Source: Verrucomicrobiota bacterium | GTDB lineage: Bacteria; Verrucomicrobiota; Kiritimatiellia; JAAZAB01 | Assembly (NCBI GenBank): GCA_018898455.1 | Contig: JAHIJO010000232.1 | Span: 1 to 32,831, forward strand | DNA: 32,831 nucleotides | Direction: 5' to 3' | Shown here: positions 12,412 through 32,557 of the stretch, piece by piece | Numbering within the stretch: the stretch's first letter is position 1 | Layout of the letters: the number at the start of each line of letters is the position of its first letter | The notes under the pieces: model-generated | Told to the model about the DNA's origin: nothing | What the model saw: the letters and a program-made list of their open reading frames with translations, nothing else | The model's database searches: none | Translations under genes and position numbers: made by a program

Positions 12412-12574
12412 CGCGCATGGTCTCTCTTGGCGCTCTACAAACACCAATTTTCCTATTATCAACAACAATATGTTGAATACATGAGAAACGACAAACGTTC
12501 ATCCGGATATATCGGCTTCCGTCGTCCCATTGCGGGACGTTATTTTCCTGGCTTTGCAGGAAAAATTTAGATCC

Positions 12575-21064: not shown

Positions 21065-21403
21065 TTATGCAATACCAAACACAGTCAGAATACCGAAGAG
21101 CGCATTCGGCAGGCAAATGATGAAGGCCGGCGGGGCCAGATGGAACAGATCAATCAACAACTTGGTGATTGCCGGCGAAAACGGAAACTGGGCCGTACGC
21201 CCCATCAACTCCATCCACTGGGTAAAAACTACCCAGCCGCTCACCGGACGGTGGCAGATATCAAAAAAGAGCATGGTGTCAGCGCGAAACGAGGAAACAC
21301 CCAGATGATAAAGGCGAAAGCCCGCGGCTAAAGCGATAACACCGATCAACGCAACGATCCACCATTTTGTCCTGACGGCGAGCGTGCTCACATGTTTTTT
21401 CAA
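21065..21403 (-). pseudogene. Truncated paralogous copy (N-terminal 112 codons) of the ArnT/PMT-family glycosyltransferase.
   Basis: Its 53-aa stretch ALAAGFRLYHLGVSSFRADTMLFFDICHRPVSGWVVFTQWMELMGRTAQFPFS is identical to residues of the full-length gene at 17354..19411. The ORF terminates exactly where the palindrome/ATPase cassette begins. Confidence 0.65.
21085..21320. repeat. Copy B of the duplicated GT39 5'-end segment (see 19105..19340).
   Basis: It has the same orientation as copy A, with a near-identical 145-bp core at 21175..21319. Confidence 0.8.
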
Positions 21404-21486
21404 TGACCATCTGTTATTATTGATTGAACGAAGGCAAATTTATCTTGGATTTATACTCATTTTAACCGAAAACCTGTCCAATGGAT

Positions 21487-21495
21487 GGGGGGGGG
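21487..21495. repeat. G9 homopolymeric tract in the intergenic region at the boundary of the lower-GC sugar island.
   Basis: ATGGATGGGGGGGGGCTCAC contains nine consecutive G. It lies between the truncated GT39 fragment and the 3' end of the GHMP kinase gene. Confidence 0.6.
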
Positions 21496-21577
21496 CTCAC
21501 AGTATATTTGATTAATTTACTTCACTCATCTTTGACTGACAACAGATATCGCTTCATGCTTCAATACCATCTCCTTA

Positions 21578-22558
21578 TTAATCTTGAACGTAGATGATCT
21601 TACCGCCCTGAGGCTCGAACGTGAACGGGGTTTCCTTAAGACCCAAAAGAGCTTTGCGCACATTGGCCTGATGCTCTTTCTCGCAATAGAACAGAAGGAA
21701 TCCCCCGCCGCCAGCTCCCAGAAGCTTTCCTCCGACTGCCCCAGCTTCCAACGCTTTCTGATAATACCCGTTGATCTCAGGATTGCTGATGCCGCCCGCA
21801 AGGTCTTTCTTTAAGAGCCAGCCCTCATGCAGGATCTCCCCGAATCCGTGTAGGTCATTCGTTTGAAGTTTCTTGAGAAGCTTATGAGACAATGCAACAA
21901 TATCATCCAGACGAGCCATATTCTTCTCCGTGTTCTCACCCTGTTCTTTGAGGATTGTCGAAGATACCCGTGTTGTGCCTGTATAAAAAAGCAGGAGCTT
22001 ATCATTCAGGATTTTCTTTGTCTCGCTGGAAAAAATGACCGGATCAACAAAAACGCTCTCATCACTGTTGAACTTGATATACTGGAACCCTCCGTAAGCT
22101 GCGATATATTGATCCTGCTTGCCGATCGGATTCTTCAATATCCCAATCTCGATCTCACAGGCCTCACGGGCCAACTGGTCTGCTGAGACATGCCTTCCCT
22201 GATACGCATGCAGCGCATTAAGAACACCTACCGCCAAGCTGCTCGATGATCCAAGGCCAATGCCCGCCGATCCCAATGGAACATCCCCCATATAAACGAC
22301 CTCGATCCCCTTCTTGACCCCTACCATCTTCAAGGCCTCACGGATAATGTTATGTTCGACTTCATCCGTTGATCCGACAAGCTCGGTCTTGGAATAGCTG
22401 ACGCGCACGAGGTCATCGAACTTCTTGTTCACGGTAATGTATATGTATTTATCGATCGCTGTTGAAACAACGGAGCCTGTTTTCTGCCTGTAATAGGCCG
22501 GCAGATCTGATCCGCCCCCGGCAAAACTCATCCGCAACGGAGTTCGCGAAATAATCAT
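21578..22558 (-). CDS. GHMP-family sugar kinase (HddA-like; D-glycero-D-manno-heptose 7-phosphate kinase type).
   Basis: The N-terminus MIISRTPLRMSFAGGGSDLPAYY is typical of HddA-like kinases. The GHMP ATP-binding motif PLGSAGIGLGSSSSLAVGV is present. An ATGA overlap with the upstream SDR gene indicates an operon. Confidence 0.65.
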   Translation of the reverse strand: MIISRTPLRMSFAGGGSDLPAYYRQKTGSVVSTAIDKYIYITVNKKFDDLVRVSYSKTELVGSTDEVEHNIIREALKMVGVKKGIEVVYMGDVPLGSAGIGLGSSSSLAVGVLNALHAYQGRHVSADQLAREACEIEIGILKNPIGKQDQYIAAYGGFQYIKFNSDESVFVDPVIFSSETKKILNDKLLLFYTGTTRVSSTILKEQGENTEKNMARLDDIVALSHKLLKKLQTNDLHGFGEILHEGWLLKKDLAGGISNPEINGYYQKALEAGAVGGKLLGAGGGGFLLFYCEKEHQANVRKALLGLKETPFTFEPQGGKIIYVQD

Positions 22559-23448
22559 CGTTCACCTCCCCATGAATGAATGCATTCTTGAAGACCCTGC
22601 TCAAGGCTGACACCTGCCCGCCACCCTAATATCTTCTCGGTCTTGGACATATCGGCCCAAAATTCAGCGGTCGGAGCCGCTGTTGAAGCGCGCAACTGTT
22701 GAGCATATTCCGGCTTCCTCCCCATCGACCGCTCCAGTATCTCACACACCTTCCAGACAGGACAAGCCCAACCAGTCCCCACATTATAAATCCCTGTCAG
22801 AACATCTTTCTTCGCTGCCAGCAGCAGTGCCTTGGCAGCATCATCGACAAAAACAAAGTCGTTTGCATTGGCCGGAGTCTTAACAACAGGGAGATCCCCC
22901 TGCTTCAAAGACCGGATGAGCGTCGGGATCAGGGACTCTGACCGCTGGCCAGGGCCATAGACATAAAATAACCGCATCCAGACGAATGACAACTGGTATT
23001 TTGCGGCAAGCATGAGCCCCATATCACACAGGGCATGTTTGGCCCAGACAAAATAGCTACTGGTCGCCACCGTATCATCTTCACGGCAGGAACCTAAGGA
23101 CTTGCCGTATTCCCAACAGCTTCCCAATGCAACGATCCTGCAACATCCACATTCCTCGGCCAGGAAACGGAACAAGGCAGTTCCCTGTTCCAGGTTTTTT
23201 CGGGACGCCTCAAACCCATAATCGGGGAGACCCTGCCAGGCAAGATGGATGCACACATCCGGATTAATCTCCGCCAGCCTGGCGGAAAAAGAGCTTAAGT
23301 CCGCGAGGTCACCCAAAACCACCTTGACACCGCTTCCCAGTGAACCCAAACTTGGAAGGCACAGGGCGTAAATCTCATCCGCCGGATCAATGAACTTCTC
23401 CAACCGGCGACCGATAAACCCTGTGACGCCTGTAATCAGTACTTTCAT
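22555..23448 (-). CDS. NAD(P)-dependent epimerase/dehydratase-family SDR (candidate nucleotide-sugar 4-reductase).
   Basis: It has the N-terminal Rossmann motif MKVLITGVTGFIGRRL and is 297 aa, the size of an extended SDR. Confidence 0.6.
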   Translation of the reverse strand: MKVLITGVTGFIGRRLEKFIDPADEIYALCLPSLGSLGSGVKVVLGDLADLSSFSARLAEINPDVCIHLAWQGLPDYGFEASRKNLEQGTALFRFLAEECGCCRIVALGSCWEYGKSLGSCREDDTVATSSYFVWAKHALCDMGLMLAAKYQLSFVWMRLFYVYGPGQRSESLIPTLIRSLKQGDLPVVKTPANANDFVFVDDAAKALLLAAKKDVLTGIYNVGTGWACPVWKVCEILERSMGRKPEYAQQLRASTAAPTAEFWADMSKTEKILGWRAGVSLEQGLQECIHSWGGER

Positions 23449-23458
23449 CGTATCCCCG

Positions 23459-24022
23459 TCAACACTCCAACCCTTTTTCCTTCACTACGAATTCCGAAAA
23501 GCTCATGGCCCCGACATCCTTGTCCGAAATGATCGGCGCCCCTTCCAACGGCCAAGGAATCCCAAGGTCCCTGTCGGCCCAGTTAATGGTCCCGGCGCTT
23601 TGCGGATGATAGGCTGTGTCCATTTTGTACAACAAAGAACAATCCGGGGTCATCGTGCACATGCCCAGCGCCAAACCTTTCGGCACATACAAGAGCTCAG
23701 GATCGGACGCGACGAGGGTCACGCCGTCCCATGAACCAAAAGTCGGCGCCCCCTTGCGCAAATCGACAAAAGCCATGAACGCCTTTCCATGGGCAATACG
23801 GACCAGCTTTGTTTCTGCATAAGGAGGACGCTGAAAATGCAAACCCCTCACCGTGCCCTTTTGGGCCGAAAAGGAGTGGCTTTCCTGGATCCAGTCCACG
23901 GGCAGTCCCTGGGGCGCAAAAAACTCCTTATCATAAGTCCGCGTGAAGAATCCTCGGTTGTCACGATGGATATCCAATCGTATCCTGAAAGCGCCGGGAA
24001 CCTTTAACGCGATCTTTTCCAC
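23459..24022 (-). CDS. RmlC-like cupin (dTDP-4-dehydrorhamnose 3,5-epimerase family) nucleotide-sugar epimerase.
   Basis: At 187 aa it has the RmlC-like motif VRGLHFQ and cupin-type beta-rich composition. AAAGGAAG lies upstream of the ATG. Confidence 0.65.
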   Translation of the reverse strand: MEKIALKVPGAFRIRLDIHRDNRGFFTRTYDKEFFAPQGLPVDWIQESHSFSAQKGTVRGLHFQRPPYAETKLVRIAHGKAFMAFVDLRKGAPTFGSWDGVTLVASDPELLYVPKGLALGMCTMTPDCSLLYKMDTAYHPQSAGTINWADRDLGIPWPLEGAPIISDKDVGAMSFSEFVVKEKGLEC

Positions 24023-24038
24023 GGACAGGATCTTCCTT

Positions 24039-25271
24039 TCATTCTACCAAGAATGGCGTTTTCGGGAACGGGACAAGGTACGGCCCCGCATATCCCGAAC
24101 CACGGCATTCGCGCATAATCTCATCCTTGAAATTCCAGGCAATGATAAAAACAAGATCCGGCTTGAGCGCCAAGCCCTTATCTCTGGAAATGATGGGGAT
24201 ATTGGAACCCGCCGTCCATCGTTCCTGTTTAAGCCCATTATTATCAATGATGGCTGCAATCTCCTTGGTGCTCAACCCGCAAAAATTCAAATATGTCGAA
24301 CTGCGCGCTGATGCGCCGAACCCCACGACGGTCTTCCCTTTAAACTCACGAAGGATCTCGATTGTTCTCGTTTTATGTTCCTGGCTCCTCAGGGCAAAAT
24401 CCTTCCAGCCAGCGACGGTATTTGTTCCTGCCTTGTCTTCAGCCGCAAAGGCTTCCGTATACGACCCATTAACAGGACATTGCGTCTTGGAAAAATAAAT
24501 AACATTCGACCCACCACTGATCGGGCTGACATCCATATGAAATGGGTACAAGCCAAAACGGCCCAGAAACGCTGTCATGGACCGGGTCGTGAAATAACAC
24601 AGATGCTCATGATAAATCGAATCATAATGCAGTTCACGTGCAATAATGCCACCGTCATGAAATTCGATAATCCCCACCCCGTCATCCGCCAGGACATCAG
24701 AAATCCCGAGAATGACATCATGGAGCTCGCTCACGTGCGGGATGACATTGCGCGCCATCACAACCCTGGCTCTGCCATGTTGGGCGACCACATCAGCCGC
24801 GGTTTCTCGGTTCCAATAAGCGCATAACGTCCGAACACCCGCTTCCTCTGCGATCTTGGCGATATTTTTTGCCGGCTCAATACCCAGTACGGAATGCCCC
24901 GCGTCAACAAAGGACTTTAGAATCGTGCCGTCGTTGGAGGCGATCTCGACGACGAGGTCTCCCACCTTCAAACCCGTGCGTTTCACCGTGCGATCGAAGA
25001 AGACCTTTGCGTAATCCCGCGCTGCCAAAGACGTCCCCGTGACCCAAACGTACGAATCAAATAGTAGTTCTTTGCGGACCGTGTCCTTGAGCTGAAATAA
25101 GCCACAATCCAAACAAAAGGCTGTCCGCAACGGATAACGTCGAGCCTGCTCTATTGCCGAACCCAACAGCGCATTGGCCAGCGGTTGTGGTCCAAGATCA
25201 AGAATACCCACAAGTTTCGCCGAAGAACAAGAACGGCATTCTTTGATCGTTTCAAACTCGGCGTGCTTCAT
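24039..25271 (-). CDS. TylCIII-type NDP-ketosugar C-methyltransferase (N-terminal Zn-ribbon plus class I SAM MTase plus C-methyltransferase C-terminal domain).
   Basis: A CxxC...CxxC zinc ribbon (CRSCSS...CLDCG) is present. The SAM motif I is VVEIASNDG. The conserved C-methyltransferase motif is YHEHLCYFT. An ATGA overlap with the upstream SDR gene indicates an operon. Confidence 0.65.
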   Translation of the reverse strand: MKHAEFETIKECRSCSSAKLVGILDLGPQPLANALLGSAIEQARRYPLRTAFCLDCGLFQLKDTVRKELLFDSYVWVTGTSLAARDYAKVFFDRTVKRTGLKVGDLVVEIASNDGTILKSFVDAGHSVLGIEPAKNIAKIAEEAGVRTLCAYWNRETAADVVAQHGRARVVMARNVIPHVSELHDVILGISDVLADDGVGIIEFHDGGIIARELHYDSIYHEHLCYFTTRSMTAFLGRFGLYPFHMDVSPISGGSNVIYFSKTQCPVNGSYTEAFAAEDKAGTNTVAGWKDFALRSQEHKTRTIEILREFKGKTVVGFGASARSSTYLNFCGLSTKEIAAIIDNNGLKQERWTAGSNIPIISRDKGLALKPDLVFIIAWNFKDEIMRECRGSGYAGPYLVPFPKTPFLVE

Positions 25272-26314
25272 CTTTTCCCTTTATCCACCCATGAAAGGTC
25301 CGGACCCAGCAATCCTTCCGACCGCAGGTGATGGATCTGCTTCAGCCGGATGCACATCCGGCCTCGGAAATGCTCTTCTGTAAAATTGATCCTCTTGAAC
25401 AGGTCAGTGAGATCTTTCCCTCCCCGATCAAGGCCCCATTCGGGCTTGAAATGATCTTTGAGAACGGTGAAGATCTTCTTGAAGCTCACGCGATACGTCC
25501 TCGAATCATTGCCATGTTCGCCGGTAAAAACAAGCGAGCTGCCCGGGACCGCGCGTTGAGCGGCTTCGGCCAGATCGCGCACCATGAAATTCCCGTTCGG
25601 GATCCCGACATTGAATGCCTGGCCGGAAACAATATCCAGCGGGGCTTCAAGTCCGGCAATGTAAGCATTCGAAACATCGTGCACATGGACAACAGGACGC
25701 CATGGAGTTCCATCGCTTTTGATCTCTATTTTGCCCGTAGTATAAGCACAGGCAACAAGGTTGTTGTAAACGATATCACAACGTAATCGCGGACTGGCCC
25801 CGAACACCGTGGACGGGCGGAAACAGATCACGTGAAAATTCTTGTCCGCCATCTTCCTCAGTTCGCACTCGGCATCCCATTTCGTACGGGCGTATGCCGT
25901 CAAAGGCTGCTTTGCGCTGTTGTCCTCTTCGATCTCAGCATCCAACCTGGAAATGCCATACATGCTCTGTGAGGACGAATAGATGAACCGCTTCACGCCA
26001 GCCTTCTTGGCCGCTTTTCCCGCGAGGACCGTTCCACCAAGGTTGATCTCTTCAGTCAATCCAGGCGTGAGCTCACCCAACGGATCATTGGAAAGCGCCG
26101 CGAGATGGATAAGGGCGTCACATCCTTTCATATCGGTTGCCTTGATATCCCGGATATCTTTGGATATCTGGACGATCGATGGGTTATGAGGATACAAAAG
26201 GCAATCCTTGTAATAACCCACATCCAATCCAACGACCTCATACCCCTTCGCAAAAAGCATATCCACAAGGACGCTGCCGATATACCCCTGATTTCCCGTA
26301 ACCAGCACCTTCAT
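25268..26314 (-). CDS. NAD-dependent epimerase/dehydratase-family SDR (candidate nucleotide-sugar dehydratase or epimerase).
   Basis: It has the Rossmann motif MKVLVTGNQGYIGSVL and the catalytic YARTK (YxxxK). It is 348 aa. Confidence 0.6.
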   Translation of the reverse strand: MKVLVTGNQGYIGSVLVDMLFAKGYEVVGLDVGYYKDCLLYPHNPSIVQISKDIRDIKATDMKGCDALIHLAALSNDPLGELTPGLTEEINLGGTVLAGKAAKKAGVKRFIYSSSQSMYGISRLDAEIEEDNSAKQPLTAYARTKWDAECELRKMADKNFHVICFRPSTVFGASPRLRCDIVYNNLVACAYTTGKIEIKSDGTPWRPVVHVHDVSNAYIAGLEAPLDIVSGQAFNVGIPNGNFMVRDLAEAAQRAVPGSSLVFTGEHGNDSRTYRVSFKKIFTVLKDHFKPEWGLDRGGKDLTDLFKRINFTEEHFRGRMCIRLKQIHHLRSEGLLGPDLSWVDKGKR

Positions 26315-26510
26315 ATCAGACCTTCCTGCTTCCTATTTGATAGATACCAACAGTAATGTCTAATGGGCCGTTTCCATGATATAATATTCTTTGCTGTCGA
26401 CCAAGAAATTAAGATCGTCGGGCTTGTTTAAGAGATATCCCGGTCCAATATTTTTTCCCTAGCCACCCTACGGATCACCACACATATCCCGTCAAAATAG
26501 TCTATAAAGA

Positions 26511-27260
26511 TCATCTTATATCTTTCTGCTCAAGCTTCTGGAACCCCTTCGACAGGGTCACGGCCTCAAAATTTCTTAAACTATCGAGCGAGGTGATAAA
26601 ATAATATTGCTCATCTGTCATGAATGCGCCGAGCCGCCCTTCTGCCGCCAGCTGCGCTAGGATCTTCTTCTCAAAAGAAATATTCCCTGTCTCCGAGACA
26701 TCCAGAACTTTCTTCTCGACAATAAAAAACCCGATATCGATACCATTCAATCCCGGCGCGCGCCGGGTCTTGTCATACGCCCCAACCCTGCCGGAGGCAT
26801 CAACAATGACATTGTTCTCATGACCGTATTCGCCTGTCCCCTTCTTATTGCTAAAGACGGTTGTTGTAACGGGAAGGCCTAACCTCTCATAATTTGCGGT
26901 CATTTTCTCCATAGGTATTGGCCAATAATTGTCGCCATACAACAGCAGAAACCGGTCGCTTAGCTTCTCATACGCATTCAGCAGGCGGCGTCCCGTAAGG
27001 TCTTCTTCCGTGCCCACGGAATACTCGATTTGGACACCGCAGGCCAGACAATCCCCGTAATACGCCATGATCTTCTCGGCCTTATAACCGACAAGAAAAA
27101 GCACCCGCATAATCCCGGCATCCACCAGAGACCGCAGCAGATAATCCGTAAAAGGAACGCCATGCACGGGGGCCATGGGCTTGGGTAATTCATCCGTTAA
27201 CGGCCGCAGGCGTTCCCCCCGACCTCCCGCCAATATGACAGCCTTTTCTATCTTTCCCAT
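26511..27260 (-). CDS. Sugar-1-phosphate nucleotidyltransferase (HddC/GDP-heptose or dNDP-sugar pyrophosphorylase type).
   Basis: The N-terminal motif VILAGGRGERLRPLTDELPKPM is the G-x-G-x-R-x-PLT signature of the NTP_transferase family. Confidence 0.7.
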   Translation of the reverse strand: MGKIEKAVILAGGRGERLRPLTDELPKPMAPVHGVPFTDYLLRSLVDAGIMRVLFLVGYKAEKIMAYYGDCLACGVQIEYSVGTEEDLTGRRLLNAYEKLSDRFLLLYGDNYWPIPMEKMTANYERLGLPVTTTVFSNKKGTGEYGHENNVIVDASGRVGAYDKTRRAPGLNGIDIGFFIVEKKVLDVSETGNISFEKKILAQLAAEGRLGAFMTDEQYYFITSLDSLRNFEAVTLSKGFQKLEQKDIR

Positions 27261-27415
27261 CTGCCGCCTTCAACTCAGAGCGCATCACGCTTAAATCGAT
27301 TGCGATTCCTGTAACCACAGGACTTCTGGATCAACTGCTGAAAACAGCCGTTAAGCCCTTCCGCGGCCACACTGCTCAGGTTGTAGCGGAATGTATCCAT
27401 GTTCGCCATCCCGGT

Positions 27416-28252
27416 TCACGGCGTGGAGGCCGTCCTCCTCTCGCGCCAGCGTCTCCGCAAGGCCAGGTATATAAAGAAAAGTCTCTTTTCGATTAGCGTC
27501 AACGCGAAGTGAACGGTCATCCACGCGACTTCAATCGGGATCAGATGCACACCGTGTTTGGCCGCCGTCATCAGCATGTAGCGCCTCGCCATTGGCGCGT
27601 ATCGCACCGTCTCATTGGCCCCATGATACCGGTTGCCGATCAACAAATCCGGGATATGGTAGATTGGCGCCTCCCGACAGATCGCTATCGAAAGGTCAAT
27701 GTCCGAGGTGTAGCAGATCGTCTGATCATAACACTGCCCCCGCATGGATGAAGTGCGGATCAGCAGGGGAATGCCGAACCAGTTCCGAGTGGTCTTGAAG
27801 CACTGCATGGCGATCGACCGGGAATCCGCCAAGCCAGAGCGCCCGAATCGCCTGACGGCCACGATCCGGTCCTCCTCGTCAATGTAGGCAAGATCGCAGT
27901 AGACTGACGGCACCTCCGGGTGGGACTCCATAATGGCGAAGGCCAGCGCCAATGCCTCCTTGTGGAACAATATGTCGTCACTGCACAGCATCATATAATA
28001 GGGCGTACGGACTTGTTCCAGACATCGGTTGGCATTGGCAACGAAGCCGCCGTTTCGCGCGTTTTCAATCATTACAAGCCGTTTATCGCCACAGAAAGAC
28101 CGAACGACGTCACGCGTGCGGTCCGTCGAGGCGTTGTCGGAAACCACAATCTGTAGATCGGCGAACGACTGGGAAAGCACTGACTCGATCGCCTTCCCAA
28201 CGAACCGTTCCTGATTATAGACGGGAATCAGAATTGTAATAGCCGGCTTCAT
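27416..28252 (-). CDS. Family-2 glycosyltransferase (GT-A fold), possibly a polyprenyl-phosphate sugar synthase of the ArnC/DPM1 type.
   Basis: MKPAITILIPVYNQERF...SDNASTD plus the CSDDIL DxD-like motif are present. There is a single C-terminal hydrophobic stretch (VAWMTVHFALTLIEKRLFFIYLAL). The ATG at 28252 is preferred over the track start at 28309. Confidence 0.65.
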   Translation of the reverse strand: MKPAITILIPVYNQERFVGKAIESVLSQSFADLQIVVSDNASTDRTRDVVRSFCGDKRLVMIENARNGGFVANANRCLEQVRTPYYMMLCSDDILFHKEALALAFAIMESHPEVPSVYCDLAYIDEEDRIVAVRRFGRSGLADSRSIAMQCFKTTRNWFGIPLLIRTSSMRGQCYDQTICYTSDIDLSIAICREAPIYHIPDLLIGNRYHGANETVRYAPMARRYMLMTAAKHGVHLIPIEVAWMTVHFALTLIEKRLFFIYLALRRRWRERRTASTP

Positions 28253-28941
28253 CCGTCGGACTTTTAGGTACTTTTCGTGAAGCGCTGCACGCACATTTGC
28301 CCATGACAATCAATCCGTGCACACTCTATATGACGCGTCTGCGGATTGACAGCAAAATCCGCCTCCATAAGCAATGGCGATCAGCCATTGAGGGTTTCGA
28401 CGACACAGGGCCAAAATACGACCGAATCGTCCCGCGATTCCTTCCCATGTATACCTGATGGAATTTGCCAAGGCCATCCCAAGCTTGACATTCATCGGTC
28501 CGTTTTATATGACTCGGACGAATAGAGCGTGATGATCTCGGAAATATCGAACAACTGATCCAGAACGGAATCGAGACTCATATCGAGCCGGTCCTTGGCC
28601 GCGGTTCTTTGAAGCATGAAGGAGGGTCAGGGCCAGCACACAATAGAAGGCATGCACAGGTAGCGGCCTCATCAGGCACTGGACAAACGAACACCTCCGA
28701 AGGTATATTCCGTCGAGATTGAGTTGCGCCCGCCCCCGACCACCCACAATGGACGGAGAGGAAAGGCAAATAAAAAGGTGGAACAACGAGCAACCATTAG
28801 CGTATCCTGCAATCGGAACTGTCCAACCAACGGGGAGAAGCTCTCGAACAATACATAACTATGAAACGCGGGACAGCCTGAACAGAGGATCACCCGTACG
28901 AAAGCCGCTGCGGCGAAGGGTTGCCCCATAAGGAGATGGTC

Positions 28942-30108
28942 ATGACGGCCCTGTGTCCGCTGTGCGGTTCTGCGCGGCATGAACAGATATACCACCAGAA
29001 GGCTCTGCCGCTTGTCAGCAACACCGTGTACGGAACGGCATCCGAAGCCATTGCATGCGCCAAAGAACCTGTTATCCTGCATCTCTGCCGGCAGTGCGGC
29101 CTTGTGTTCAACCCCTCCTTTGATTCGAGCAAGATCGCTTACGATACGCACTACGACAACCGCCGGGATTCTTCTCCGCGGTACCGGCGCTATCTGGACG
29201 AATTGACGACGACCCTCAAGAATGCGTATGGGCTGACAAGAAAAAATGTTCTCGAGGTGGGATGCGGCCAGGGGGACTTTTTGCGTCTATTTACACAGGT
29301 GAGCGAATCAAGCGGAGCGGGGTATGACCCTGCGTATCAGGGACCTGAACAGTTCGGGGCAACATCTTTCGTGCGCGCCCCATTTGTTCCGGGCCGGCAA
29401 ACGACGCCCTACAACACCTTGATCCTTCGCCACGTTCTGGAGCACATTGAACAACCAGGGCTGTTTGTTCAAGCTGCTCTTGACAGCCTGGTTACGGCGG
29501 ATGATGTTAGTGTCGTTGTCGAAGTTCCCTGTTTTGCCTGGATCCTTGACGCTGGCGCCTATTGGGATATTGCATACGAGCACTGCAATTACTTTACCAG
29601 GGAATCCTTGTCTTTCCTCTTCGACCAAGCGGGGATAGAGGTTATGGATGTACAGAATGTCTTCGAAGGCCAGTACTTGCTCGCCGTCGGCAAGGCTCGC
29701 CAACGATCCCGACTGCCGCACGCTTTTTGTCAGCGTCCCGTCCCGCAGAAGGAATTCGAACATGCTCTATGCCCGAAGCTCAGGACCTTTGAACAAAAAC
29801 GTGCGTCGATTACCCATCAGCTGGGGCAGTTCGATCAGTTTACCATCTGGGGAGTAGCCGGAAAGGGAGTTACCTTTGTGAATCTGCTCGATCAAGATCA
29901 GCTGGACAAAATCCCCTTTTTGATCGATATGAATCCGAACAAGCAGAGAAAATACTGCCCCGGCACGGACAAGCTGATTGTCCCACCCTCCGTCTTGGCC
30001 GGCGAAACGCAAGTACGCGTCATCCTTTTGATGAACCCCATCTATTATGACGAGATAACGGAACAAACGAACACGTTTGGTAATACGTACCACCTGTTGG
30101 TTCCTTGA
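28942..30108 (+). CDS. Second TylCIII-type C-methyltransferase, distantly related to 24039..25271.
   Basis: A Zn ribbon (CPLCGS...CRQCG) is present. The SAM motif I is VLEVGCGQGDFL. The C-methyltransferase motif is YEHCNYFT. AAGGAG lies 6 nt upstream of the chosen ATG 28942, and the track ORF starts at TTG 28921. Confidence 0.65.
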   Translation: MTALCPLCGSARHEQIYHQKALPLVSNTVYGTASEAIACAKEPVILHLCRQCGLVFNPSFDSSKIAYDTHYDNRRDSSPRYRRYLDELTTTLKNAYGLTRKNVLEVGCGQGDFLRLFTQVSESSGAGYDPAYQGPEQFGATSFVRAPFVPGRQTTPYNTLILRHVLEHIEQPGLFVQAALDSLVTADDVSVVVEVPCFAWILDAGAYWDIAYEHCNYFTRESLSFLFDQAGIEVMDVQNVFEGQYLLAVGKARQRSRLPHAFCQRPVPQKEFEHALCPKLRTFEQKRASITHQLGQFDQFTIWGVAGKGVTFVNLLDQDQLDKIPFLIDMNPNKQRKYCPGTDKLIVPPSVLAGETQVRVILLMNPIYYDEITEQTNTFGNTYHLLVP

Positions 30109-30119
30109 AGGAGATGACC

Positions 30120-30842
30120 ATGCGCGACGACATTTCACCCCTGCGAAAATATGTTGCTGTTAATAAAGATAAAGACGAGCTGGCTTTACAGACGCAAGCT
30201 CGACAATGGATATGTCTCGCTCATCAGAACAAATTATCCTATGAAATTGACTGGCTGGGTGTTCCAATTATTCAGACACCGGAAGACATGGTCTTGATGC
30301 AGGAACTTCTCTACACCGTGAGACCGGATATCCTCATCGAAACGGGAATCGCCCACGGCGGGTCCCTCATCTACTATGCCTCGCTGTTTGAACTCATCGG
30401 AAAGGGCTTGGTCATTGGCATTGACAGGGAAATCAGGCCAAATAACCGCGCAGTGATAGACGCTCATGCCATGAGAAAGCGAATCGTGATGATCGAGGGA
30501 GATTCCGTTTCTGACGAGACGCTGATAGCCGTGCGAGACCTGGTCCCCGAGGGCAAACGCACGGTTGTTTGTCTCGACGCCGATCACACGAAACAACACG
30601 TCCTCCGCGAACTTGATCGGTACCATCATTTCGTGGATATCGGGTCGTACCTAGTTGTGTTTGATACGTGCAGTTCCATGTTGGCGGAGCATGGGGTCGT
30701 CGGTCCCGAATGGCGCCATAATGGCCCGAAAGAGGCCGTCGCCGAGTTCCTCAATCTCCACAAAACCTTTGCGGTGGATACTTCCTACGATAAATTGTAT
30801 GTATCCCATAATCAAGGCGGTTTTCTCAAGCGTATCGCCTGA
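30120..30842 (+). CDS. CmcI-family class I SAM-dependent methyltransferase (sugar O-methyltransferase type).
   Basis: At ~240 aa it has a layout like CmcI/rhamnosyl-O-methyltransferase proteins (WLGVPIIQTPEDMVLMQELLYTVRPDILIETGIAHGGS...VIGIDREI). AAGGAG lies 6 nt upstream of ATG 30120. Confidence 0.55.
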   Translation: MRDDISPLRKYVAVNKDKDELALQTQARQWICLAHQNKLSYEIDWLGVPIIQTPEDMVLMQELLYTVRPDILIETGIAHGGSLIYYASLFELIGKGLVIGIDREIRPNNRAVIDAHAMRKRIVMIEGDSVSDETLIAVRDLVPEGKRTVVCLDADHTKQHVLRELDRYHHFVDIGSYLVVFDTCSSMLAEHGVVGPEWRHNGPKEAVAEFLNLHKTFAVDTSYDKLYVSHNQGGFLKRIA

Positions 30843-30880
30843 GCGACGCGCTTGATGGCTGCAAACCTGGTGCCCTACTC

Positions 30881-32557
30881 GTGCCAACTATACTGCTACT
30901 GGTTATCCCAAATTATTCGATCAAAATGCTAGAAGAAGATGCCGCCCTTGCTCGCGGCGGCCAAGGTGATTTCACCAAGAGCGTTGACTGGGGGATATCC
31001 GTTCCCATCGGGATCTTGTATATTGCGGCAAACCTCCGGGCGCATGGCCATGAAGTGCGCATTCTTGATTTGCACAGAGCTTTTAAGCAATGCCGCGATA
31101 ATGGCTATTTTGCCACCCACACGTTGCCATCTTTCTTTGAGGAATTCTTTGATGAAACGGTGCGGGACATGTTGCCGGATATTCTCGGATTGAGTTGTCT
31201 GTTCAACGTTTCGTCAAGCACGGCTCTTCATCTTGCGCAGCGCTGCCAACAGTTCTTTCCATCAGTGGCCGTGGTCATGGGAGGACATTACCCTACCAGT
31301 GAGTATCCCGCTCTGGTCCGTGATGGTAGCGCTAACTATATTCTCCTTGGAGAGGCGGAAGAGTCGTTCGCTCTTTTATGCGATCACTTTACCGATCCCG
31401 ACCGCGACGCTCTTCTCGCGGCCTCTCCGGGCATTGTTCAGGCAAAGGCGCTTTCTGCTTATGACCACAGGGCGGTAGTGGTTCAGGACCTAGACGCATT
31501 ACCCATGCCTGATCTGGACATGTTGCCACACCGGGATGAGTATCTTCTTGCTTCGTTACATGCCGAACGGGTCGGGGTAGCGTTGGCTGGAAAGACGATC
31601 AAGGCAGCGCCTCTTTTTACCACCCGCGGATGCCCGATGCACTGTACATTTTGCGCTTCATTCGCTGTCCATGGCAGGAAAGTCAGGGCGCATTCCATAG
31701 ACTACCTGATGAGATGCATCAACGTTCTGGTGGCTCGATACGGGGTCAACCATCTGCTGATTGAAGACGATATGTTCAACTATTCCATATCGCGTTCATG
31801 TGCCTTTTGCGACGCTGTTTACAAAAGGTACGGAAACCATTTCACGATCGAGTTCCCCAACGGGTTCGCAATATGGAATCTTAACAATGAACTGGCCGCC
31901 AAGCTCAAGAAGATCGGTCTGTCTTCGGTAACGGTGGGAGTCGAGAGCGGCAGCCCTTATGTCCAGAAGCATATTTTGAAGAAGAATCTCAACTTGACAC
32001 GCGTACGCGAAAACATACGTCTTTTTCAGGCCCATGGAATCGGGGTACGCGCCTTTTTTATCGTCGGCTTTGTCGGCGAGACACTTAAAATGATGGAGGA
32101 GACGGTGCAGTTTGCTCTGAGTCTGAATATCGACTGGGCTGAGGTCAAGATATTCACTCCGCTGGTCGGCAGCGAGATGTATGCGTGCGCGCATGATAAG
32201 GGGTATCTGATCGGCGACATGAGCGAGCACGTGTATGGTCGCTGTTGCGTTAAGACCCCTGAGTTTTCGCCTGAAGAGGTCAAACAGGTCCAGTATGACG
32301 CCAATATCAGGATTAATTTTCTTAACAACCTTTTTTTGAGAGAAAAGCGTTTCATGGAAGCAGAGAAAGTATTCAAGGGGCTTTTGGCTCGATTTCCAGG
32401 ACATGTCTTTGCCCAGTGGGGTTTGGAACAGGCTCTGGCTGGTCAGGGAAAAGAGAAACAGGCGCAGGAGGCACACGACGATATGCTGGGGATGGCAGAC
32501 CGTTCCACGCTCGTAGCAGAGTTGCTGAAGAAGTATGGCATCTTGCGCTCAGATTAG
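30881..32557 (+). CDS. B12-binding-domain radical SAM enzyme (class B radical SAM, candidate methyltransferase).
   Basis: An N-terminal Rossmann-like B12-binding region (TILLLVIPNY...GILYIAANLRAHGHEVRILDL) is present. The radical SAM cluster motif is TTRGCPMHCTFC (C-x3-C-x2-C). It is 558 aa. The GTG start at 30881 lacks a clear SD, and the alternative ATG at 30926 would drop the first beta-strand of the B12 domain. Confidence 0.7.
   Translation: MPTILLLVIPNYSIKMLEEDAALARGGQGDFTKSVDWGISVPIGILYIAANLRAHGHEVRILDLHRAFKQCRDNGYFATHTLPSFFEEFFDETVRDMLPDILGLSCLFNVSSSTALHLAQRCQQFFPSVAVVMGGHYPTSEYPALVRDGSANYILLGEAEESFALLCDHFTDPDRDALLAASPGIVQAKALSAYDHRAVVVQDLDALPMPDLDMLPHRDEYLLASLHAERVGVALAGKTIKAAPLFTTRGCPMHCTFCASFAVHGRKVRAHSIDYLMRCINVLVARYGVNHLLIEDDMFNYSISRSCAFCDAVYKRYGNHFTIEFPNGFAIWNLNNELAAKLKKIGLSSVTVGVESGSPYVQKHILKKNLNLTRVRENIRLFQAHGIGVRAFFIVGFVGETLKMMEETVQFALSLNIDWAEVKIFTPLVGSEMYACAHDKGYLIGDMSEHVYGRCCVKTPEFSPEEVKQVQYDANIRINFLNNLFLREKRFMEAEKVFKGLLARFPGHVFAQWGLEQALAGQGKEKQAQEAHDDMLGMADRSTLVAELLKKYGILRSD

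What the first reader, a model, noticed from the sequence alone, without database searches (positions are those of the whole stretch)
21404..32557. Lower-GC ~11-kb nucleotide-sugar island encoding a deoxy/branched sugar pathway with four methyltransferase-type enzymes
The GC content shifts from about 60% to about 47-50% at ~21.4 kb, by hand count over sampled 60-nt lines. The island holds two divergent operons around a 0.69-kb control region. The minus-strand operon runs GT2, then sugar-1-P nucleotidyltransferase, SDR, TylCIII-type C-methyltransferase, RmlC-like 3,5-epimerase, SDR and GHMP (HddA-like) kinase. The plus-strand operon runs a second TylCIII-type C-methyltransferase, a CmcI-type methyltransferase and a B12-radical SAM enzyme. 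The combination of kinase, pyrophosphorylase, dehydratase, epimerase and reductase resembles GDP-heptose or 6-deoxyheptose pathways. Two C-methyltransferases, an O-methyltransferase-type enzyme and a class B radical SAM enzyme point to an unusually heavily methylated, possibly doubly C-branched, sugar. I do not recognise that as a described pathway. Gene order with ATGA overlaps argues these are co-expressed.
Basis: partly seen in the sequence, partly recalled or inferred. Interest (0 to 1): 0.7.

Follow-up and report, generated by a model that had tools for sequence, protein, structure and literature searches.

The report
Gene cluster for a heavily methylated heptose
This stretch of an uncultured Kiritimatiellae/Verrucomicrobia genome carries ten genes that most likely build and attach a seven-carbon surface sugar decorated with several methyl groups; the same uncharacterised gene set recurs in many uncultured bacteria and at least one archaeon, and the sugar it makes is unknown.

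Summary
The ten genes and their family assignments are real. The composition shift is real but smaller than reported: 51.6% GC against 57.9% for the left flank.

The locus is not a one-off. Orthologous clusters in Omnitrophota, a Thermoplasmatales archaeon and many metagenome contigs also carry GmhA and a GmhB-nucleotidyltransferase fusion. The substrate is therefore a sedoheptulose-7-P-derived heptose.

The 348-aa SDR resembles the GDP-heptose C4 oxidase Cj1427 and lacks dehydratase residues. The pathway is therefore not a 6-deoxyheptose route.

A TylC3-type C-methyltransferase, an RmlC epimerase and a second SDR follow mycarose-like logic. The second SDR has FxxxK instead of YxxxK in all heptose-type clusters.

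The second TylC3-like enzyme keeps the Glu-His dyad, but its regiochemistry is unknown.

The radical SAM enzyme belongs to a subfamily specific to heptose clusters. It is paired with, and once fused to, the CmcI-type methyltransferase. Its nearest solved relative is AprD4, a diol dehydratase that does not bind cobalamin, so methylation is unproven.

An adjacent GT-C glycosyltransferase probably installs the sugar.

I found no described pathway like this. I rate it a new variant of a known kind, of moderate-to-good interest.

The parts
21578..22558 (-). [quoted passage not shown]
   Evidence: It matches PF00288 and PF08544. The best NCBIfam hit is HddA NF049969 at 1e-42, far below the equivalog cut-off. 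The best PDB hits are heptose kinases: 3k85 at 4.9e-41, and 4n3o and WcbL 4usm at about 5e-35. It is 56-72% identical to kinases in loci that also encode GmhA.
22555..23448 (-). Extended SDR of 297 aa with an atypical FxxxK motif; nominally the 4-ketoreductase position of the cassette, true role uncertain
   Evidence: It matches PF01370 at 3e-30 and has only weak PDB hits (MoeE5, Rmd). All 15 heptose-type orthologs have FxxxK, while the CDP-hexose-type orthologs keep YxxxK. It is fused to the second TylC3-like enzyme in P0005.
23459..24022 (-). RmlC-type cupin 3,5-epimerase, probably acting as a C5 epimerase after C3 methylation
   Evidence: It matches PF00908 at 4.6e-54. TIGR01221 scores 157.2 against a cut-off of 155.75. 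PDB RmlC entries match at 1e-40. The His, Lys, Tyr and Asp catalytic positions can be read directly in the sequence (RGLHFQ, ETKLVR, LYK, SDKD).
24039..25271 (-). TylC3/TcaB9/MtmC-family nucleotide-sugar C-methyltransferase (C-MT1)
   Evidence: It carries PF08421 (Zn ribbon), PF13489 and PF08484. PDB matches are MtmC 4rv9 at 2.5e-58, KijD1 at about 1e-49 and TcaB9 at about 6e-47.
25268..26314 (-). Cj1427-like NAD-dependent nucleotide-sugar C4 oxidase (348-aa SDR); not a 4,6-dehydratase
   Evidence: The best PDB hit is 6vo6 at 4.3e-35, 33.8% identity over 314 aa. That 6vo6 is Cj1427 rests on my recollection. The motif SSSQSMYG stands where dehydratases have T-D/S-E. Matches to dehydratase families are very weak. 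It is 47-67% identical to its orthologs in most GmhA-containing loci.
26511..27260 (-). Sugar-1-phosphate nucleotidyltransferase; nucleotide unresolved, GDP slightly favoured
   Evidence: It matches PF00483. NCBIfam hits are the Man-1-P guanylyltransferase family at 2e-31 and HddC at 9e-23, all below cut-off. It is 45% identical over 229 aa to the transferase domain of the NTPt-GmhB fusion in L010. The HAD domain of that fusion passes the GmhB cut-off.
27416..28252 (-). Family-2 glycosyltransferase, first gene of the minus-strand operon
   Evidence: It matches PF00535 at 1e-21. A GT2 gene follows the radical SAM ortholog in L095, L096 and L016. Whether the acceptor is polyprenyl phosphate or a glycan was not determined.
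28253..28941 (.). 689-bp divergent intergenic region
   Evidence: No gene is called here in the database records. There is no Rfam match even at E<=1. Promoter- and terminator-like sites are at chance level. No GmhA or GmhB remnant is present.
28942..30108 (+). Divergent TylC3-like nucleotide-sugar methyltransferase (C-MT2)
   Evidence: It matches PF13489 at 9e-19 and PF08484 at 1.7e-7. MtmC matches at 1.6e-12 over residues 10-379. hhalign against the C-MT1 family gives 99.9% probability, E 1.3e-33, over 376 columns. The four Zn cysteines, His168 and Glu213-His214 are conserved, but the Tyr220 equivalent is not. The start is ATG 28942, with AAGGAG at 28930-28935.
30120..30842 (+). CmcI / rhamnosyl O-methyltransferase-family methyltransferase
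   Evidence: It matches PF04989 at 1.1e-63. The PDB hit is CmcI at 1e-8. Its gene is adjacent to the radical SAM ortholog in L102, L108, L113, L116 and L128 and fused to it in P0155.
30881..32557 (+). Class-B-like radical SAM enzyme of 558 aa: N-terminal B12-binding-type domain, CxxxCxxC core, C-terminal helical repeats
   Evidence: It matches PF02310 at 55.9 bits and PF04055 at 63.7 bits. About 58 ortholog clusters lie at 46-56% identity. Heptose genes accompany orthologs at >=49% identity in 11 of 16 loci and paralogs at <=34% identity in 0 of 28. The AF2 model has pLDDT 86.6. The nearest PDB fold is AprD4 at 1.2e-20, followed by the Cbl-dependent methylases. The GTG 30881 start is supported by alignment to P0122.
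17354..19417 (-). GT-C-fold membrane glycosyltransferase (GT39/ArnT/STT3-like) with a C-terminal CBM-like beta-sandwich; probable installer of the sugar (outside the reported coordinates)
   Evidence: It has weak PMT_2 and STT3 hits. Homologs are named GT39 and carry PF13231 or PF02366. The AF2 model has pLDDT 89.6, and the top 32 PDB fold hits are all GT-C enzymes. The gene directly follows the kinase in L003. Orthologs in L178 and L179 sit beside other sugar-tailoring gene sets.
21065..21403 (-). Truncated duplicate of the 5' end of the GT-C gene (not a functional part)
   Evidence: A 296-nt direct repeat, 21072-21367 against 19089-19384, is 86% identical overall and nearly identical in its core.

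Best explanation

Inferred steps:
1. Heptose 7-phosphate is made from sedoheptulose 7-P by a GmhA encoded elsewhere in the genome.
2. The HddA-like kinase phosphorylates it at C1.
3. A GmhB encoded elsewhere removes the 7-phosphate.
4. The nucleotidyltransferase makes the NDP-heptose. I favour GDP slightly.
5. The Cj1427-like SDR oxidises C4 without dehydration.
6. The 4-keto group allows the TylC3-type enzyme to methylate C3 and the RmlC-type cupin to epimerise C5. This is the mycarose TylC3/TylK/TylC2 logic applied to a heptose.
7. The keto group is then reduced, either by the atypical 297-aa SDR or by the oxidase giving back its hydride.
8. The plus-strand operon adds further decoration. 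The second TylC3-like enzyme adds a methyl group, at C5 in the NovU manner or on an oxygen. The CmcI-type enzyme and the radical SAM enzyme act as a pair. I think they most likely act on the heptose-specific C6-C7 side chain, with a cobalamin-dependent C-methylation plus an O-methylation.
9. The GT2, and probably the adjacent GT-C enzyme through a lipid-linked intermediate, install the sugar.

What the evidence shows directly: the family assignments, orthology to clusters that contain GmhA and GmhB, the absence of dehydratase residues, the gene fusions and the synteny. Every chemical step, the nucleotide, the positions methylated and the acceptor are inferred.
For: Heptose origin:
- The kinase's best matches are heptose kinases.
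- Orthologous clusters share kinases at 56-72% identity and mostly the SDR348 at 47-67% identity. Several share the NTPt at 43-59% identity, or about 45% to the transferase domain of the fusion in L010. These clusters carry GmhA-like SIS genes and NTPt-GmhB fusions.
- In C. jejuni, GmhB is likewise encoded outside the heptose cluster (PMC10680097).

C4 oxidation rather than dehydration:
- The best PDB match is 6vo6, and the dehydratase acid/base residues are absent.
- Cj1427 is the GDP-manno-heptose C4 oxidase (PMC10680097 and PMC7949155).

C-methylation and epimerisation:
- C-MT1 is a clear TylC3-family member, and the RmlC model is passed.
- The five-gene cassette C-MT1/RmlC/SDR/C-MT2/CmcI recurs behind CDP-glucose 4,6-dehydratase in other phyla. 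It therefore acts on 4-keto nucleotide sugars.

The plus-strand operon belongs to the sugar pathway:
- All these genes sit on one strand in L007, L008, L010, L012 and L016.
- There is an SDR297-C-MT2 fusion, P0005, and a radical SAM-CmcI fusion, P0155.
- Heptose genes accompany radical SAM orthologs in 11 of 16 loci and paralogs in 0 of 28.

Installation:
- The GT-C fold is confirmed, and its orthologs sit beside variable sugar clusters.
Against: - No GmhA or GmhB gene or remnant lies in the 32.8-kb window.
- The kinase, the nucleotidyltransferase and both SDRs score far below every curated equivalog cut-off.
- The nucleotide is unresolved. The same tailoring cassette, and SDR348-like proteins at 42-47% identity, work with CDP-glucose enzymes elsewhere.
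- SDR297 has Phe where SDRs have the catalytic Tyr.
- The radical SAM enzyme's closest solved relative is AprD4, a dehydratase that does not bind cobalamin.
- C-MT2-like genes occur in 2-4 copies in some clusters. That is more than the two enolisable carbons can absorb, so some family members probably do not C-methylate.
- There is no expression, chemical or glycan data.
Confidence: 0.55

Rival explanations
1. The pathway is the same heptose route, but the radical SAM enzyme is an AprD4-like radical dehydratase, or performs another non-methylating radical reaction. It would remove or rearrange a hydroxyl of a vicinal diol, for example the C6-C7 side chain. A partner SDR (SDR297) and the CmcI-type methyltransferase would then process the resulting carbonyl or hydroxyl. 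The product would be a deoxy or keto O-methyl heptose, not an extra C-methyl sugar.
For: - AprD4 is the top solved relative by sequence (6fd2, 1.6e-20), by NCBIfam family (1.6e-29) and by fold (E 1.2e-20, TMt 0.73).
- AprD4 acts on a sugar diol and does not bind cobalamin, although it sits in the B12-radical-SAM similarity network (PMC12931638).
- The SDR297 ortholog lies immediately upstream of the radical SAM gene in L095, L096 and L103. This recalls the AprD4/AprD3 dehydratase-reductase pair, which I cite from my own knowledge.
Against: - The AprD4 family model aligns only to the core, residues 180-469.
- The N-terminal domain instead matches PF02310 above its gathering score (55.9 against 32.1). 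It also aligns with full-length B12-methylase families from about residue 41: Sden_1168 at 1e-32, ApyD, BchE and HpnR.
- TM-scores to CysS and TsrM are similar to that for AprD4.
- SDR297 lacks the catalytic Tyr needed for a reductase partner.
Confidence: 0.3
2. This is an ordinary deoxysugar locus: a 6-deoxyheptose (Ddah/WcbK-type) or a 6-deoxyhexose of mycarose/vinelose type. One SDR would be the 4,6-dehydratase and the other the reductase.
For: - The gene set kinase, pyrophosphorylase, two SDRs and an RmlC-like epimerase looks like the 6-deoxyheptose clusters.
- The same tailoring cassette sits behind a true CDP-glucose 4,6-dehydratase in type-B loci such as L020 (TIGR02622 at 499.9 bits).
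Against: - Neither SDR in the window matches a dehydratase family meaningfully. SDR348 scores 1.2e-6 against dTDP-glucose dehydratase and 7.5e-4 against CDP-glucose dehydratase, and does not hit Gmd.
- SDR348 has SSSQSMYG in place of the Thr-Asp/Ser-Glu motif, and its best match is the non-dehydrating oxidase Cj1427.
- SDR297 lacks the catalytic Tyr.
- A kinase would be unnecessary for a hexose-1-P route.
Confidence: 0.08
3. The kinase and nucleotidyltransferase form a salvage pair, like fucokinase and its pyrophosphorylase. They would activate a free hexose or another sugar taken up from the environment, and the heptose reading is wrong for this organism.
For: - No GmhA or GmhB is present in the window.
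- The kinase also hits the fucokinase domain at 1.6e-26 and 3e-18.
- L007 and L016, the closest relatives, also show no SIS or HAD gene in the sequence available.
Against: - The kinase is 56-72% identical to kinases in GmhA-containing clusters, and the NTPt is about 45% identical to the transferase domain of the L010 GmhB fusion.
- L012, whose kinase is 71% identical and whose NTPt is 50% identical, has GmhA in the cluster.
- A heptose cluster lacking GmhB has a precedent in C. jejuni.
Confidence: 0.07

Closest known systems
[quoted passage not shown]
   Same: Both use a GHMP (HddA-type) kinase, a small nucleotidyltransferase, an SDR that oxidises C4 without dehydration (best PDB match 6vo6, 33.8% identity), a cupin epimerase acting on the 4-keto-heptose, and a second SDR. 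In both cases the cluster can lack GmhB (PMC10680097).
   Different: The C. jejuni pathways have no C-methyltransferase, no CmcI-type enzyme and no radical SAM enzyme. The epimerase here is closer to true RmlC than to Cj1430. The second SDR is unrelated to the GFS-like Cj1428 and has FxxxK. The nucleotide here is unproven.
TylC3/TylK/TylC2 (L-mycarose), TcaB9, KijD1 and MtmC: C3-methylation of dTDP-4-keto-6-deoxyhexoses
   Same: C-MT1 has the same three-domain architecture and scores 2.5e-58 against MtmC. The gene order methyltransferase, RmlC-like epimerase, SDR mirrors the sequence methylation, 5-epimerisation, 4-reduction.
   Different: The substrate here is a non-deoxy heptose made through a kinase route. 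The genes sit in a cell-surface glycan locus of an uncultured PVC bacterium, not in an actinomycete antibiotic cluster. A second, very divergent paralog is present (18% identity at profile level).
NovU/NovW/NovS (noviose): C5-methylation of a 4-keto sugar
   Same: It provides a precedent, cited from my own knowledge, for a TylC3-family enzyme methylating C5. That is the only other enolisable carbon next to a 4-keto group, so it is a possible role for C-MT2.
   Different: I could make no sequence comparison with NovU. C-MT2 lacks the Tyr220 equivalent. Its family occurs in multiple copies in CDP-glucose clusters, so O-methylation is equally possible.
AprD4 (with AprD3): radical SAM diol dehydratase of apramycin biosynthesis
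   Same: It is the closest solved structure to the radical SAM enzyme by both sequence and fold, and it acts on a sugar.
   Different: It shares only 21-22% identity. AprD4 has no cobalamin, whereas the protein here has an N-terminal domain that passes the Pfam B12-binding model. The substrate context here is a nucleotide-heptose, not a pseudodisaccharide.
Cobalamin-dependent radical SAM C-methyltransferases acting on sugars or nucleotide-linked substrates (GenK, GenD1, Fom3; solved examples TokK, CysS, TsrM, MgmA)
   Same: They share the domain order of a B12-type Rossmann domain followed by a CxxxCxxC radical SAM barrel. Fold matches lie at E 1e-15 to 1e-11.
   Different: No curated family model is passed; the best is 113 bits against a cut-off of 575. 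There is no evidence of cobalamin binding. The association with heptose clusters appears to be undescribed.
CmcI (cephamycin 7-methoxylation) and the mycobacterial rhamnosyl 2-O-methyltransferase Rv2959c (PF04989)
   Same: The Pfam match is strong, at 215 bits.
   Different: The protein scores only 81 bits against the rhamnosyl O-methyltransferase equivalog, whose cut-off is 400. Here it is paired with, or fused to, a radical SAM enzyme, not partnered with an oxygenase.
ArnC/ArnT- or GtrB/GtrC-type two-step glycan modification (a GT2 makes a polyprenyl-phosphate sugar, a GT-C transfers it in the periplasm)
   Same: A small GT2 and a GT-C-fold membrane enzyme lie next to a single-sugar synthesis cluster. 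There is no polymerase, flippase or exporter gene in the locus.
   Different: The GT2 has no clear C-terminal transmembrane helices and no specific match to ArnC or GtrB. No GtrA-like flippase is present. The link between the GT2 and the GT-C enzyme is inferred from adjacency only.

Membership tests
[quoted passage not shown] | HddA-type GHMP kinase | tested here: inconclusive
   HddA is the top family (1e-42, 146.8 bits) but the equivalog cut-off is 600. The top PDB hits are heptose kinases. The protein is orthologous (56-72% identity) to kinases in GmhA-containing clusters.
[quoted passage not shown] | GmhA isomerase and GmhB phosphatase encoded with the pathway | tested here: not met
   No SIS or HAD gene, or remnant of one, lies in the window. 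Both are present in the orthologous loci L008, L010, L095, L096, L100, L103 and L128. They may lie elsewhere in this genome, as GmhB does in C. jejuni.
[quoted passage not shown] | HddC guanylyltransferase (GTP specificity) | tested here: inconclusive
   HddC scores 81 bits against a cut-off of 300. The Man-1-P guanylyltransferase family scores 109 against 440. UDP- and CDP-type families score similarly. Specificity cannot be read from the sequence.
Cj1427-type nucleotide-heptose C4 dehydrogenase | Extended SDR with the Ser/Tyr/Lys triad, no dehydratase Glu, and similarity to Cj1427 | tested here: met
   6vo6 matches at 4.3e-35 with 33.8% identity over 314 aa. YARTK is present, SSSQSMYG replaces T-D/S-E, and the motif FRxxTVFGxSPRxRxD is shared. 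That 6vo6 is Cj1427 rests on recollection.
Cj1427-type nucleotide-heptose C4 dehydrogenase | Tightly bound NADH recycled by alpha-ketoglutarate (ping-pong) | not testable with these tools
   This needs a biochemical assay.
GDP-heptose / NDP-hexose 4,6-dehydratase route (6-deoxy sugars) | A 4,6-dehydratase-family SDR with the Thr, Asp/Ser-Glu and Tyr-x3-Lys residues | tested here: not met
   Neither SDR matches a dehydratase family beyond background. The motif is absent. A true CDP-glucose dehydratase is easily recognised in L020.
TylC3/TcaB9 nucleotide-sugar C-methyltransferases | Zn-ribbon N-domain, class I SAM domain and PF08484 C-domain (C-MT1) | tested here: met
   PF08421 scores 58 bits, PF13489 38.8 bits and PF08484 115.7 bits. 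MtmC matches at 2.5e-58.
TylC3/TcaB9 nucleotide-sugar C-methyltransferases | The same architecture and catalytic residues in C-MT2 | tested here: inconclusive
   PF08484 scores 31.6 bits and PF08421 is not detected. The profile alignment is end to end, and the four cysteines, the His and the Glu-His dyad are conserved. The Tyr220 equivalent is replaced. Whether the enzyme methylates carbon or oxygen cannot be tested here.
RmlC 3,5-epimerases | The curated equivalog score and the catalytic His/Lys/Tyr/Asp residues | tested here: met
   TIGR01221 scores 157.2 against 155.75, which is marginal. RmlC structures match at 1e-40. The residues can be read in the sequence.
Cobalamin-dependent (class B) radical SAM methyltransferases | CxxxCxxC cluster motif and an N-terminal B12-binding-type domain | tested here: met
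   The motif GCPMHCTFC is present. PF04055 scores 63.7 and PF02310 scores 55.9 against a cut-off of 32.1.
Cobalamin-dependent (class B) radical SAM methyltransferases | Actual cobalamin binding and methyl transfer | not testable with these tools
   The nearest solved relative, AprD4, lacks cobalamin. No curated methylase family cut-off is reached.
CmcI / rhamnosyl O-methyltransferase family (PF04989) | A Pfam domain match above the gathering score | tested here: met
   The score is 215.1 bits against a cut-off of 23.2. The equivalog for the rhamnosyl O-methyltransferase is not reached (81 against 400).
GT-C glycosyltransferases (for the adjacent 687-aa protein) | A multi-helix GT-C membrane fold with a first-loop acidic motif | tested here: met
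   The AF2 model has pLDDT 89.6. The top 32 PDB hits are all GT-C enzymes. R39-A40-D41, with D41 invariant, lies in the first loop. The TM-scores are only 0.3-0.6.
Horizontally acquired genomic island | Atypical composition together with mobility hallmarks (tRNA, integrase, IS, flanking repeats) | tested here: inconclusive
   The composition shift is real. There is no tRNA and no integrase or transposase among the gene calls. The only repeats are the 296-nt duplication around the AAA_14/DUF4143 gene. Lower GC is also usual for glycan loci.

The most novel reading that the evidence does not exclude
The heptose-specific radical SAM subfamily and its CmcI-type partner may carry out a radical modification of a nucleotide-activated heptose that has not been described. 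Candidates are C-methylation that extends or branches the C6-C7 side chain, or its deoxygenation, followed by O-methylation. Combined with one or two enolate C-methylations, this would yield a new class of poly-methylated, C-branched heptose or octose surface sugar. That sugar would be shared by uncultured anaerobic bacteria (Kiritimatiellae, Omnitrophota) and Thermoplasmatales archaea, and might be carried on a nucleotide other than GDP or ADP.
Probability: 0.4. Interest if true: 0.72.

Novelty: new variant of a known kind. Interest (0 to 1): 0.55.

Why it matters
Heptoses are signature sugars of bacterial envelopes. Their known modifications are epimerisation, deoxygenation and O-methylation. 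C-methylation by TylC3-type enzymes is known almost only from deoxyhexoses of antibiotics and a few O-antigens.

This locus, and the dozens of related loci recovered here, indicate three things:
- a widespread, uncharacterised branch of heptose chemistry in anaerobic, uncultured lineages of both Bacteria and Archaea;
- a radical SAM subfamily that appears dedicated to nucleotide-heptoses;
- an SDR that has lost its catalytic tyrosine.

Each is a concrete, clonable target for enzymology. The product would be a new glycan building block and a possible antigenic or phage-receptor determinant. None of this changes a general principle, so the interest is that of a good new pathway, not a new kind of system.

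Tried and rejected
- **Riboswitch or other RNA in the 689-bp divergent region.** I had a cobalamin or SAM riboswitch upstream of the radical SAM operon in mind. Rfam gave nothing at gathering score for the whole window, and nothing at E<=1 for 28200-29000.
- **Promoter and terminator scans of the island.** Counts were at chance level. They say nothing about operon structure.
- **GmhA/GmhB remnants or other lost cluster genes in the window's intergenic regions.** tblastn at E<=10 found none.
- **tRNA as an island border.** None was found.
- **Literature.** None described such a cluster. The library lacks most subscription papers, so this is weak negative evidence.
- **Verifying that PDB 6VO6 is Cj1427.** This failed. 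The identification rests on my recollection and on the PDB molecule name.
- **6-deoxyheptose or mycarose-type known pathway.** Considered and rejected because no dehydratase is present.
- **Plus-strand operon unrelated to the sugar.** Rejected because of the fusions and the synteny.
- **Kinase as a hexose salvage enzyme.** Rejected because of orthology to clusters that contain GmhA and GmhB.
- **orf112 as a GtrA-like flippase.** Rejected: it is a duplicated fragment of the GT-C gene.
- **Genome-collection scan.** It did not find the window's own species; the best C-MT2 match was 35% identical. Genome-wide questions, such as the whereabouts of gmhA and gmhB, could therefore not be answered.

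Full report
**Source and observation**

The window is nearly the whole of a 32,853-nt metagenome contig, ENA ERZ27247108 k141_7203. NCBI names identical proteins as coming from a Verrucomicrobia or Kiritimatiellae MAG.

All ten ORFs in the finding exist, and Pfam confirms every family call.

- Minus strand: GT2 (27416-28252), NTP-transferase (26511-27260), a 348-aa SDR (25268-26314), a C-methyltransferase with PF08421, PF13489 and PF08484 (24039-25271), an RmlC-like cupin (23459-24022), a 297-aa SDR (22555-23448) and a GHMP kinase (21578-22558).
- Plus strand: a second methyltransferase with PF13489 and a weaker PF08484 match (28942-30108), a CmcI/RMNT-family protein (30120-30842) and a B12-binding plus radical SAM protein (30881-32557).

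Two ATGA overlaps are confirmed, at 22555-22558 and 25268-25271. The third junction is more likely an 11-nt gap with a good Shine-Dalgarno sequence. The divergent gap is 689 bp.

The 15 residues that database gene calls omit align to orthologs.

**Composition**

The island is 51.6% GC, against 57.9% for the left flank and 59.7% for the first 11.5 kb. GC3 is 0.56-0.64 for nine of the ten island genes (the GT2 is 0.72), against 0.68-0.76 for seven of the eight flank genes (a 199-aa ORF at 11869-12468 is 0.575). Tetranucleotide usage switches at about 20-22 kb. The shift is therefore real but about half the size the finding stated.

The neighbouring 687-aa membrane-protein gene (17354-19417) has intermediate composition. 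The right border is set by a convergent periplasmic-binding-protein gene, seen in the longer relative L002. There is no tRNA, integrase or transposase.

**The locus belongs to a recurrent cluster family**

I searched with the second methyltransferase and the radical SAM protein. I then read the neighbourhoods of the hits, scanned genome and metagenome collections, and ran tblastn with all window proteins against 170 fetched loci.

Three architectures emerge.

- **Type A**, to which the window belongs, has the GHMP kinase. Its members include L007, L008, L010, L012, L016 (an Omnitrophota MAG), L095 (a Thermoplasmatales archaeon MAG), L096, L100, L102, L103, L108, L110, L116 and L128.
- **Type B** has the same five-gene cassette (C-MT1, RmlC, SDR, C-MT2, CmcI). 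It sits behind a bona fide glucose-1-P cytidylyltransferase and a CDP-glucose 4,6-dehydratase, both above NCBIfam cut-offs.
- **Type C** has the cytidylyltransferase, an SDR348-like protein (42-47% identity), C-MT1 and two to four C-MT2-like genes. It occurs in cultured Alphaproteobacteria such as Mesorhizobium qingshengii, Ruegeria, Psychromarinibacter and Chthonobacter, in an uncultured Acidimicrobiia genome (four copies) and in many other uncultured lineages.

**Why heptose**

- The kinase's best curated family is HddA, and its best solved relatives are heptose kinases (3k85, 4n3o, WcbL).
- Type-A relatives share a kinase at 56-72% identity and, in most loci, the 348-aa SDR at 47-67% identity. 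They also encode a GmhA-like SIS protein, whose top NCBIfam hits are all phosphoheptose isomerases.
- They also encode a nucleotidyltransferase fused to a HAD domain. That domain reaches the GmhB cut-off in L010 (180 bits against 178).
- The window's unfused nucleotidyltransferase is 45% identical over its full length to the transferase half of that fusion. This fusion links it to heptose 1-phosphate.
- The window itself has no GmhA or GmhB gene or remnant. In C. jejuni the capsule heptose cluster likewise relies on a GmhB encoded in the LPS cluster (PMC10680097). A Gram-negative PVC bacterium plausibly does the same, but that is an inference.

**No dehydratase**

The 348-aa SDR's best solved relative is 6vo6 (4.3e-35, 33.8% identity over 314 residues). 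[quoted passage not shown] Cj1427 oxidises C4 without dehydration and recycles its NADH with alpha-ketoglutarate (PMC10680097, PMC7949155).

The window protein has YARTK, but SSSQSMYG stands where 4,6-dehydratases carry Thr-Asp/Ser-Glu. It barely touches the dehydratase families. The sugar probably keeps its C6 hydroxyl at this stage.

**The cassette**

C-MT1 is an unambiguous TylC3/TcaB9/MtmC-family enzyme (2.5e-58 to MtmC). The cupin passes the RmlC equivalog model, narrowly, and shows the catalytic residues.

The order oxidase, C-methyltransferase, epimerase, SDR reproduces the logic of mycarose-type pathways: C3 methylation next to a 4-keto group, then C5 epimerisation, then 4-reduction. 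That comparison rests on established knowledge of TylC3, TylK and TylC2.

An unexpected detail weakens the last step. In all 15 heptose-type orthologs, the 297-aa SDR has Phe in place of the catalytic Tyr (FxxxK; SSYFVWAK in the window). The orthologs in the CDP-6-deoxyhexose cassette all keep YxxxK. The NAD-binding motif, Ser110-Cys111, Glu113-Tyr114 and the Lys are invariant. I cannot explain this.

Type-C clusters have no second SDR at all. The Cj1427-like oxidase may therefore return the hydride itself, leaving the FxxxK protein some other role.

**The second TylC3-like enzyme**

Profile-profile alignment with the C-MT1 family is end to end: 99.9% probability, E 1.3e-33, 376 columns, 18% identity. 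The four Zn-ribbon cysteines, the His of the N-V-x-x-H motif and the Glu-His dyad are conserved. The Tyr two residues before the dyad is not conserved.

In one relative the protein is fused to the FxxxK SDR (P0005). It is therefore a nucleotide-sugar methyltransferase of the same fold with an altered active site.

C5 methylation, for which NovU is the precedent, is possible. However, type-C clusters carry up to four copies beside C-MT1. A 4-keto sugar has only two enolisable carbons, so the family probably includes enzymes that do not methylate carbon.

**The radical SAM enzyme**

About 58 ortholog clusters exist at 46-56% identity, none of them characterised.

- Of 16 loci of at least 6 kb with an ortholog at 49% identity or more, 11 also carry the HddA-like kinase, 11 carry the Cj1427-like SDR and 9 carry GmhA.
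- None of 28 loci with paralogs at 34% identity or less carries the HddA-like kinase or the Cj1427-like SDR.
- In L095 and L096 the gene order is kinase, GmhA, oxidase, NTPt-GmhB, (C-MT1 or an aminotransferase), cupin, FxxxK SDR, radical SAM, GT2.

This subfamily therefore belongs to the heptose module, not to the methyltransferase cassette. Its gene is adjacent to the CmcI-type gene in five further loci and is fused to it in P0155.

Its chemistry is open. The N-terminal domain passes the Pfam B12-binding model. Full-length alignments are best to B12-dependent methylase families, all far below cut-off.

The closest solved protein is nevertheless AprD4, by sequence (1.6e-20) and by fold (AF2 model pLDDT 86.6; Foldseek E 1.2e-20, TMt 0.73). 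It ranks ahead of MgmA, CysS, TsrM, TokK and OxsB. AprD4 is a sugar 1,2-diol dehydratase, and a recent review states that it does not bind cobalamin (PMC12931638).

I favour cobalamin-dependent C-methylation on the heptose side chain, at about even odds. A radical dehydration is the main rival.

**Installation**

The cluster has one GT2 and no polymerase, flippase or exporter gene.

The 687-aa membrane protein next door has only weak PMT_2 and STT3 sequence hits. Its homologs are annotated as GT39. A confident model (pLDDT 89.6) matches only GT-C glycosyltransferases among its top 32 PDB hits, and it has a C-terminal CBM-like beta-sandwich.

In the related contig L003 this gene directly follows the kinase. 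Orthologs at 77% and 66% identity lie beside different sugar-tailoring gene sets, one of them another kinase, NTPt and GmhA set.

The picture is a strain-variable glycan-decoration locus anchored at a conserved GT-C gene. This also accounts for the lower GC without invoking a mobile element. That the GT2 makes a lipid-linked donor for the GT-C enzyme is inference from adjacency.

**Comparison and verdict**

The closest known systems are:

- the C. jejuni GDP-heptose Cj1427/Cj1430/Cj1428 pathway, for the activation and C4-oxidation half;
- the TylC3-type branched-sugar pathways, for the C-methylation half;
- AprD4 or the class B methylases, for the radical SAM step.

No single described pathway combines them, and my literature searches found none. 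Those searches cover open-access papers only.

It is wrong or unproven on three points: the dehydratase, the reductase, and the fourth 'methyltransferase'.

I rate the locus a new variant of a known kind. It offers three concrete enzymological puzzles: the heptose-specific radical SAM enzyme and its CmcI partner, the FxxxK SDR, and the divergent TylC3 paralog.

Noticed in passing
window 19089-19384 and 21072-21367 (with 19776-20954 between them): A 296-nt direct repeat is 86% identical overall and nearly identical in its core. It duplicates the 5' end of the GT-C gene, and the second copy forms the 112-aa 'ORF' at 21065-21403. An AAA_14/DUF4143 ATPase gene lies between the copies. The related contig L003 lacks both the ATPase gene and the duplicate, so this is a recent insertion with duplication.
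   Followed up: partly
window 22555-23448 and orthologs in L007, L008, L010, L012, L016, L095, L099, L102, L106, L108, L109, L110, L118, L163: The 297-aa SDR has FxxxK instead of the catalytic YxxxK in every heptose-type cluster. Orthologs in the CDP-6-deoxyhexose clusters keep Tyr. This is unexplained.
   Followed up: partly
window 911-9796 (+): A 2961-aa protein carries GH94 supersandwich and catalytic domains, a glucoamylase-like domain and a faint GT2 region. This is the architecture of a cyclic beta-1,2-glucan synthase (Cgs/NdvB-like).
   Followed up: no
window 15949/16072-17193 (+): A radical SAM protein best matches TIGR03916, 'putative DNA modification/repair radical SAM protein' (287 bits, below the 343.5 cut-off). 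A 70-aa gene is called next to it in L001. It appears unrelated to the sugar cluster.
   Followed up: no
window 11500-12500 (ORF 11869-12468, -): A second small low-GC patch (0.50) contains a 199-aa ORF with no family match in Pfam or NCBIfam.
   Followed up: no
window 12575-14757 (-): An SPFH/Band-7 protein (517 aa) is preceded by a 210-aa membrane protein with a faint NfeD C-terminal match, and the two genes overlap by 4 nt. This is the usual NfeD-SPFH pair.
   Followed up: no
L095 5451-7289 (Thermoplasmatales archaeon MAG, GCA_030640375.1): A triple fusion joins the nucleotidyltransferase, GmhB and a uridine-kinase/PRK-like P-loop domain (612 aa). The kinase-like domain might hint at a pyrimidine nucleotide for the heptose, but the match is weak (65 bits against a cut-off of 180).
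   Followed up: no
L039, L085, L087, L090, L062 and about 30 other loci: A widespread cluster type has glucose-1-P cytidylyltransferase, a Cj1427-like SDR, one TylC3-type gene and 2-4 divergent TylC3-like genes, with no second SDR, cupin or CmcI. It occurs in cultured Alphaproteobacteria (Mesorhizobium qingshengii, Ruegeria, Psychromarinibacter, Chthonobacter), in cyanobacteria and in Acidimicrobiia. It implies an uncharacterised poly-methylated CDP-hexose.
   Followed up: partly
L007, L010, L012, L016: Other heptose-type clusters carry a different radical SAM trio: a MiaB/RimO-like protein of about 390 aa, a SPASM protein of about 305-325 aa and, in L007, L012 and L016, a B12-type radical SAM protein (KedN5-like in L012). 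This stands in place of, or beside, the window's subfamily. L012 and L016 also carry a TylF-type methyltransferase and an ABC exporter.
   Followed up: partly
window 30881-30925: Public gene calls for the radical SAM protein (543 aa) start 15 codons too late. The upstream residues ILLLVIPNYSIK align to orthologs, so GTG 30881 is the likely start.
   Followed up: yes
L094 (ENA ERZ27252164 k141_281892): The radical SAM-CmcI fusion sits among LuxC/LuxE-like acyl-reductase and acyl-protein synthetase genes, an AMP-binding enzyme, a carrier protein, three more B12-type radical SAM genes and a CMP-sugar synthetase-like gene. This suggests an acylated, nonulosonate-type glycan context.
   Followed up: no
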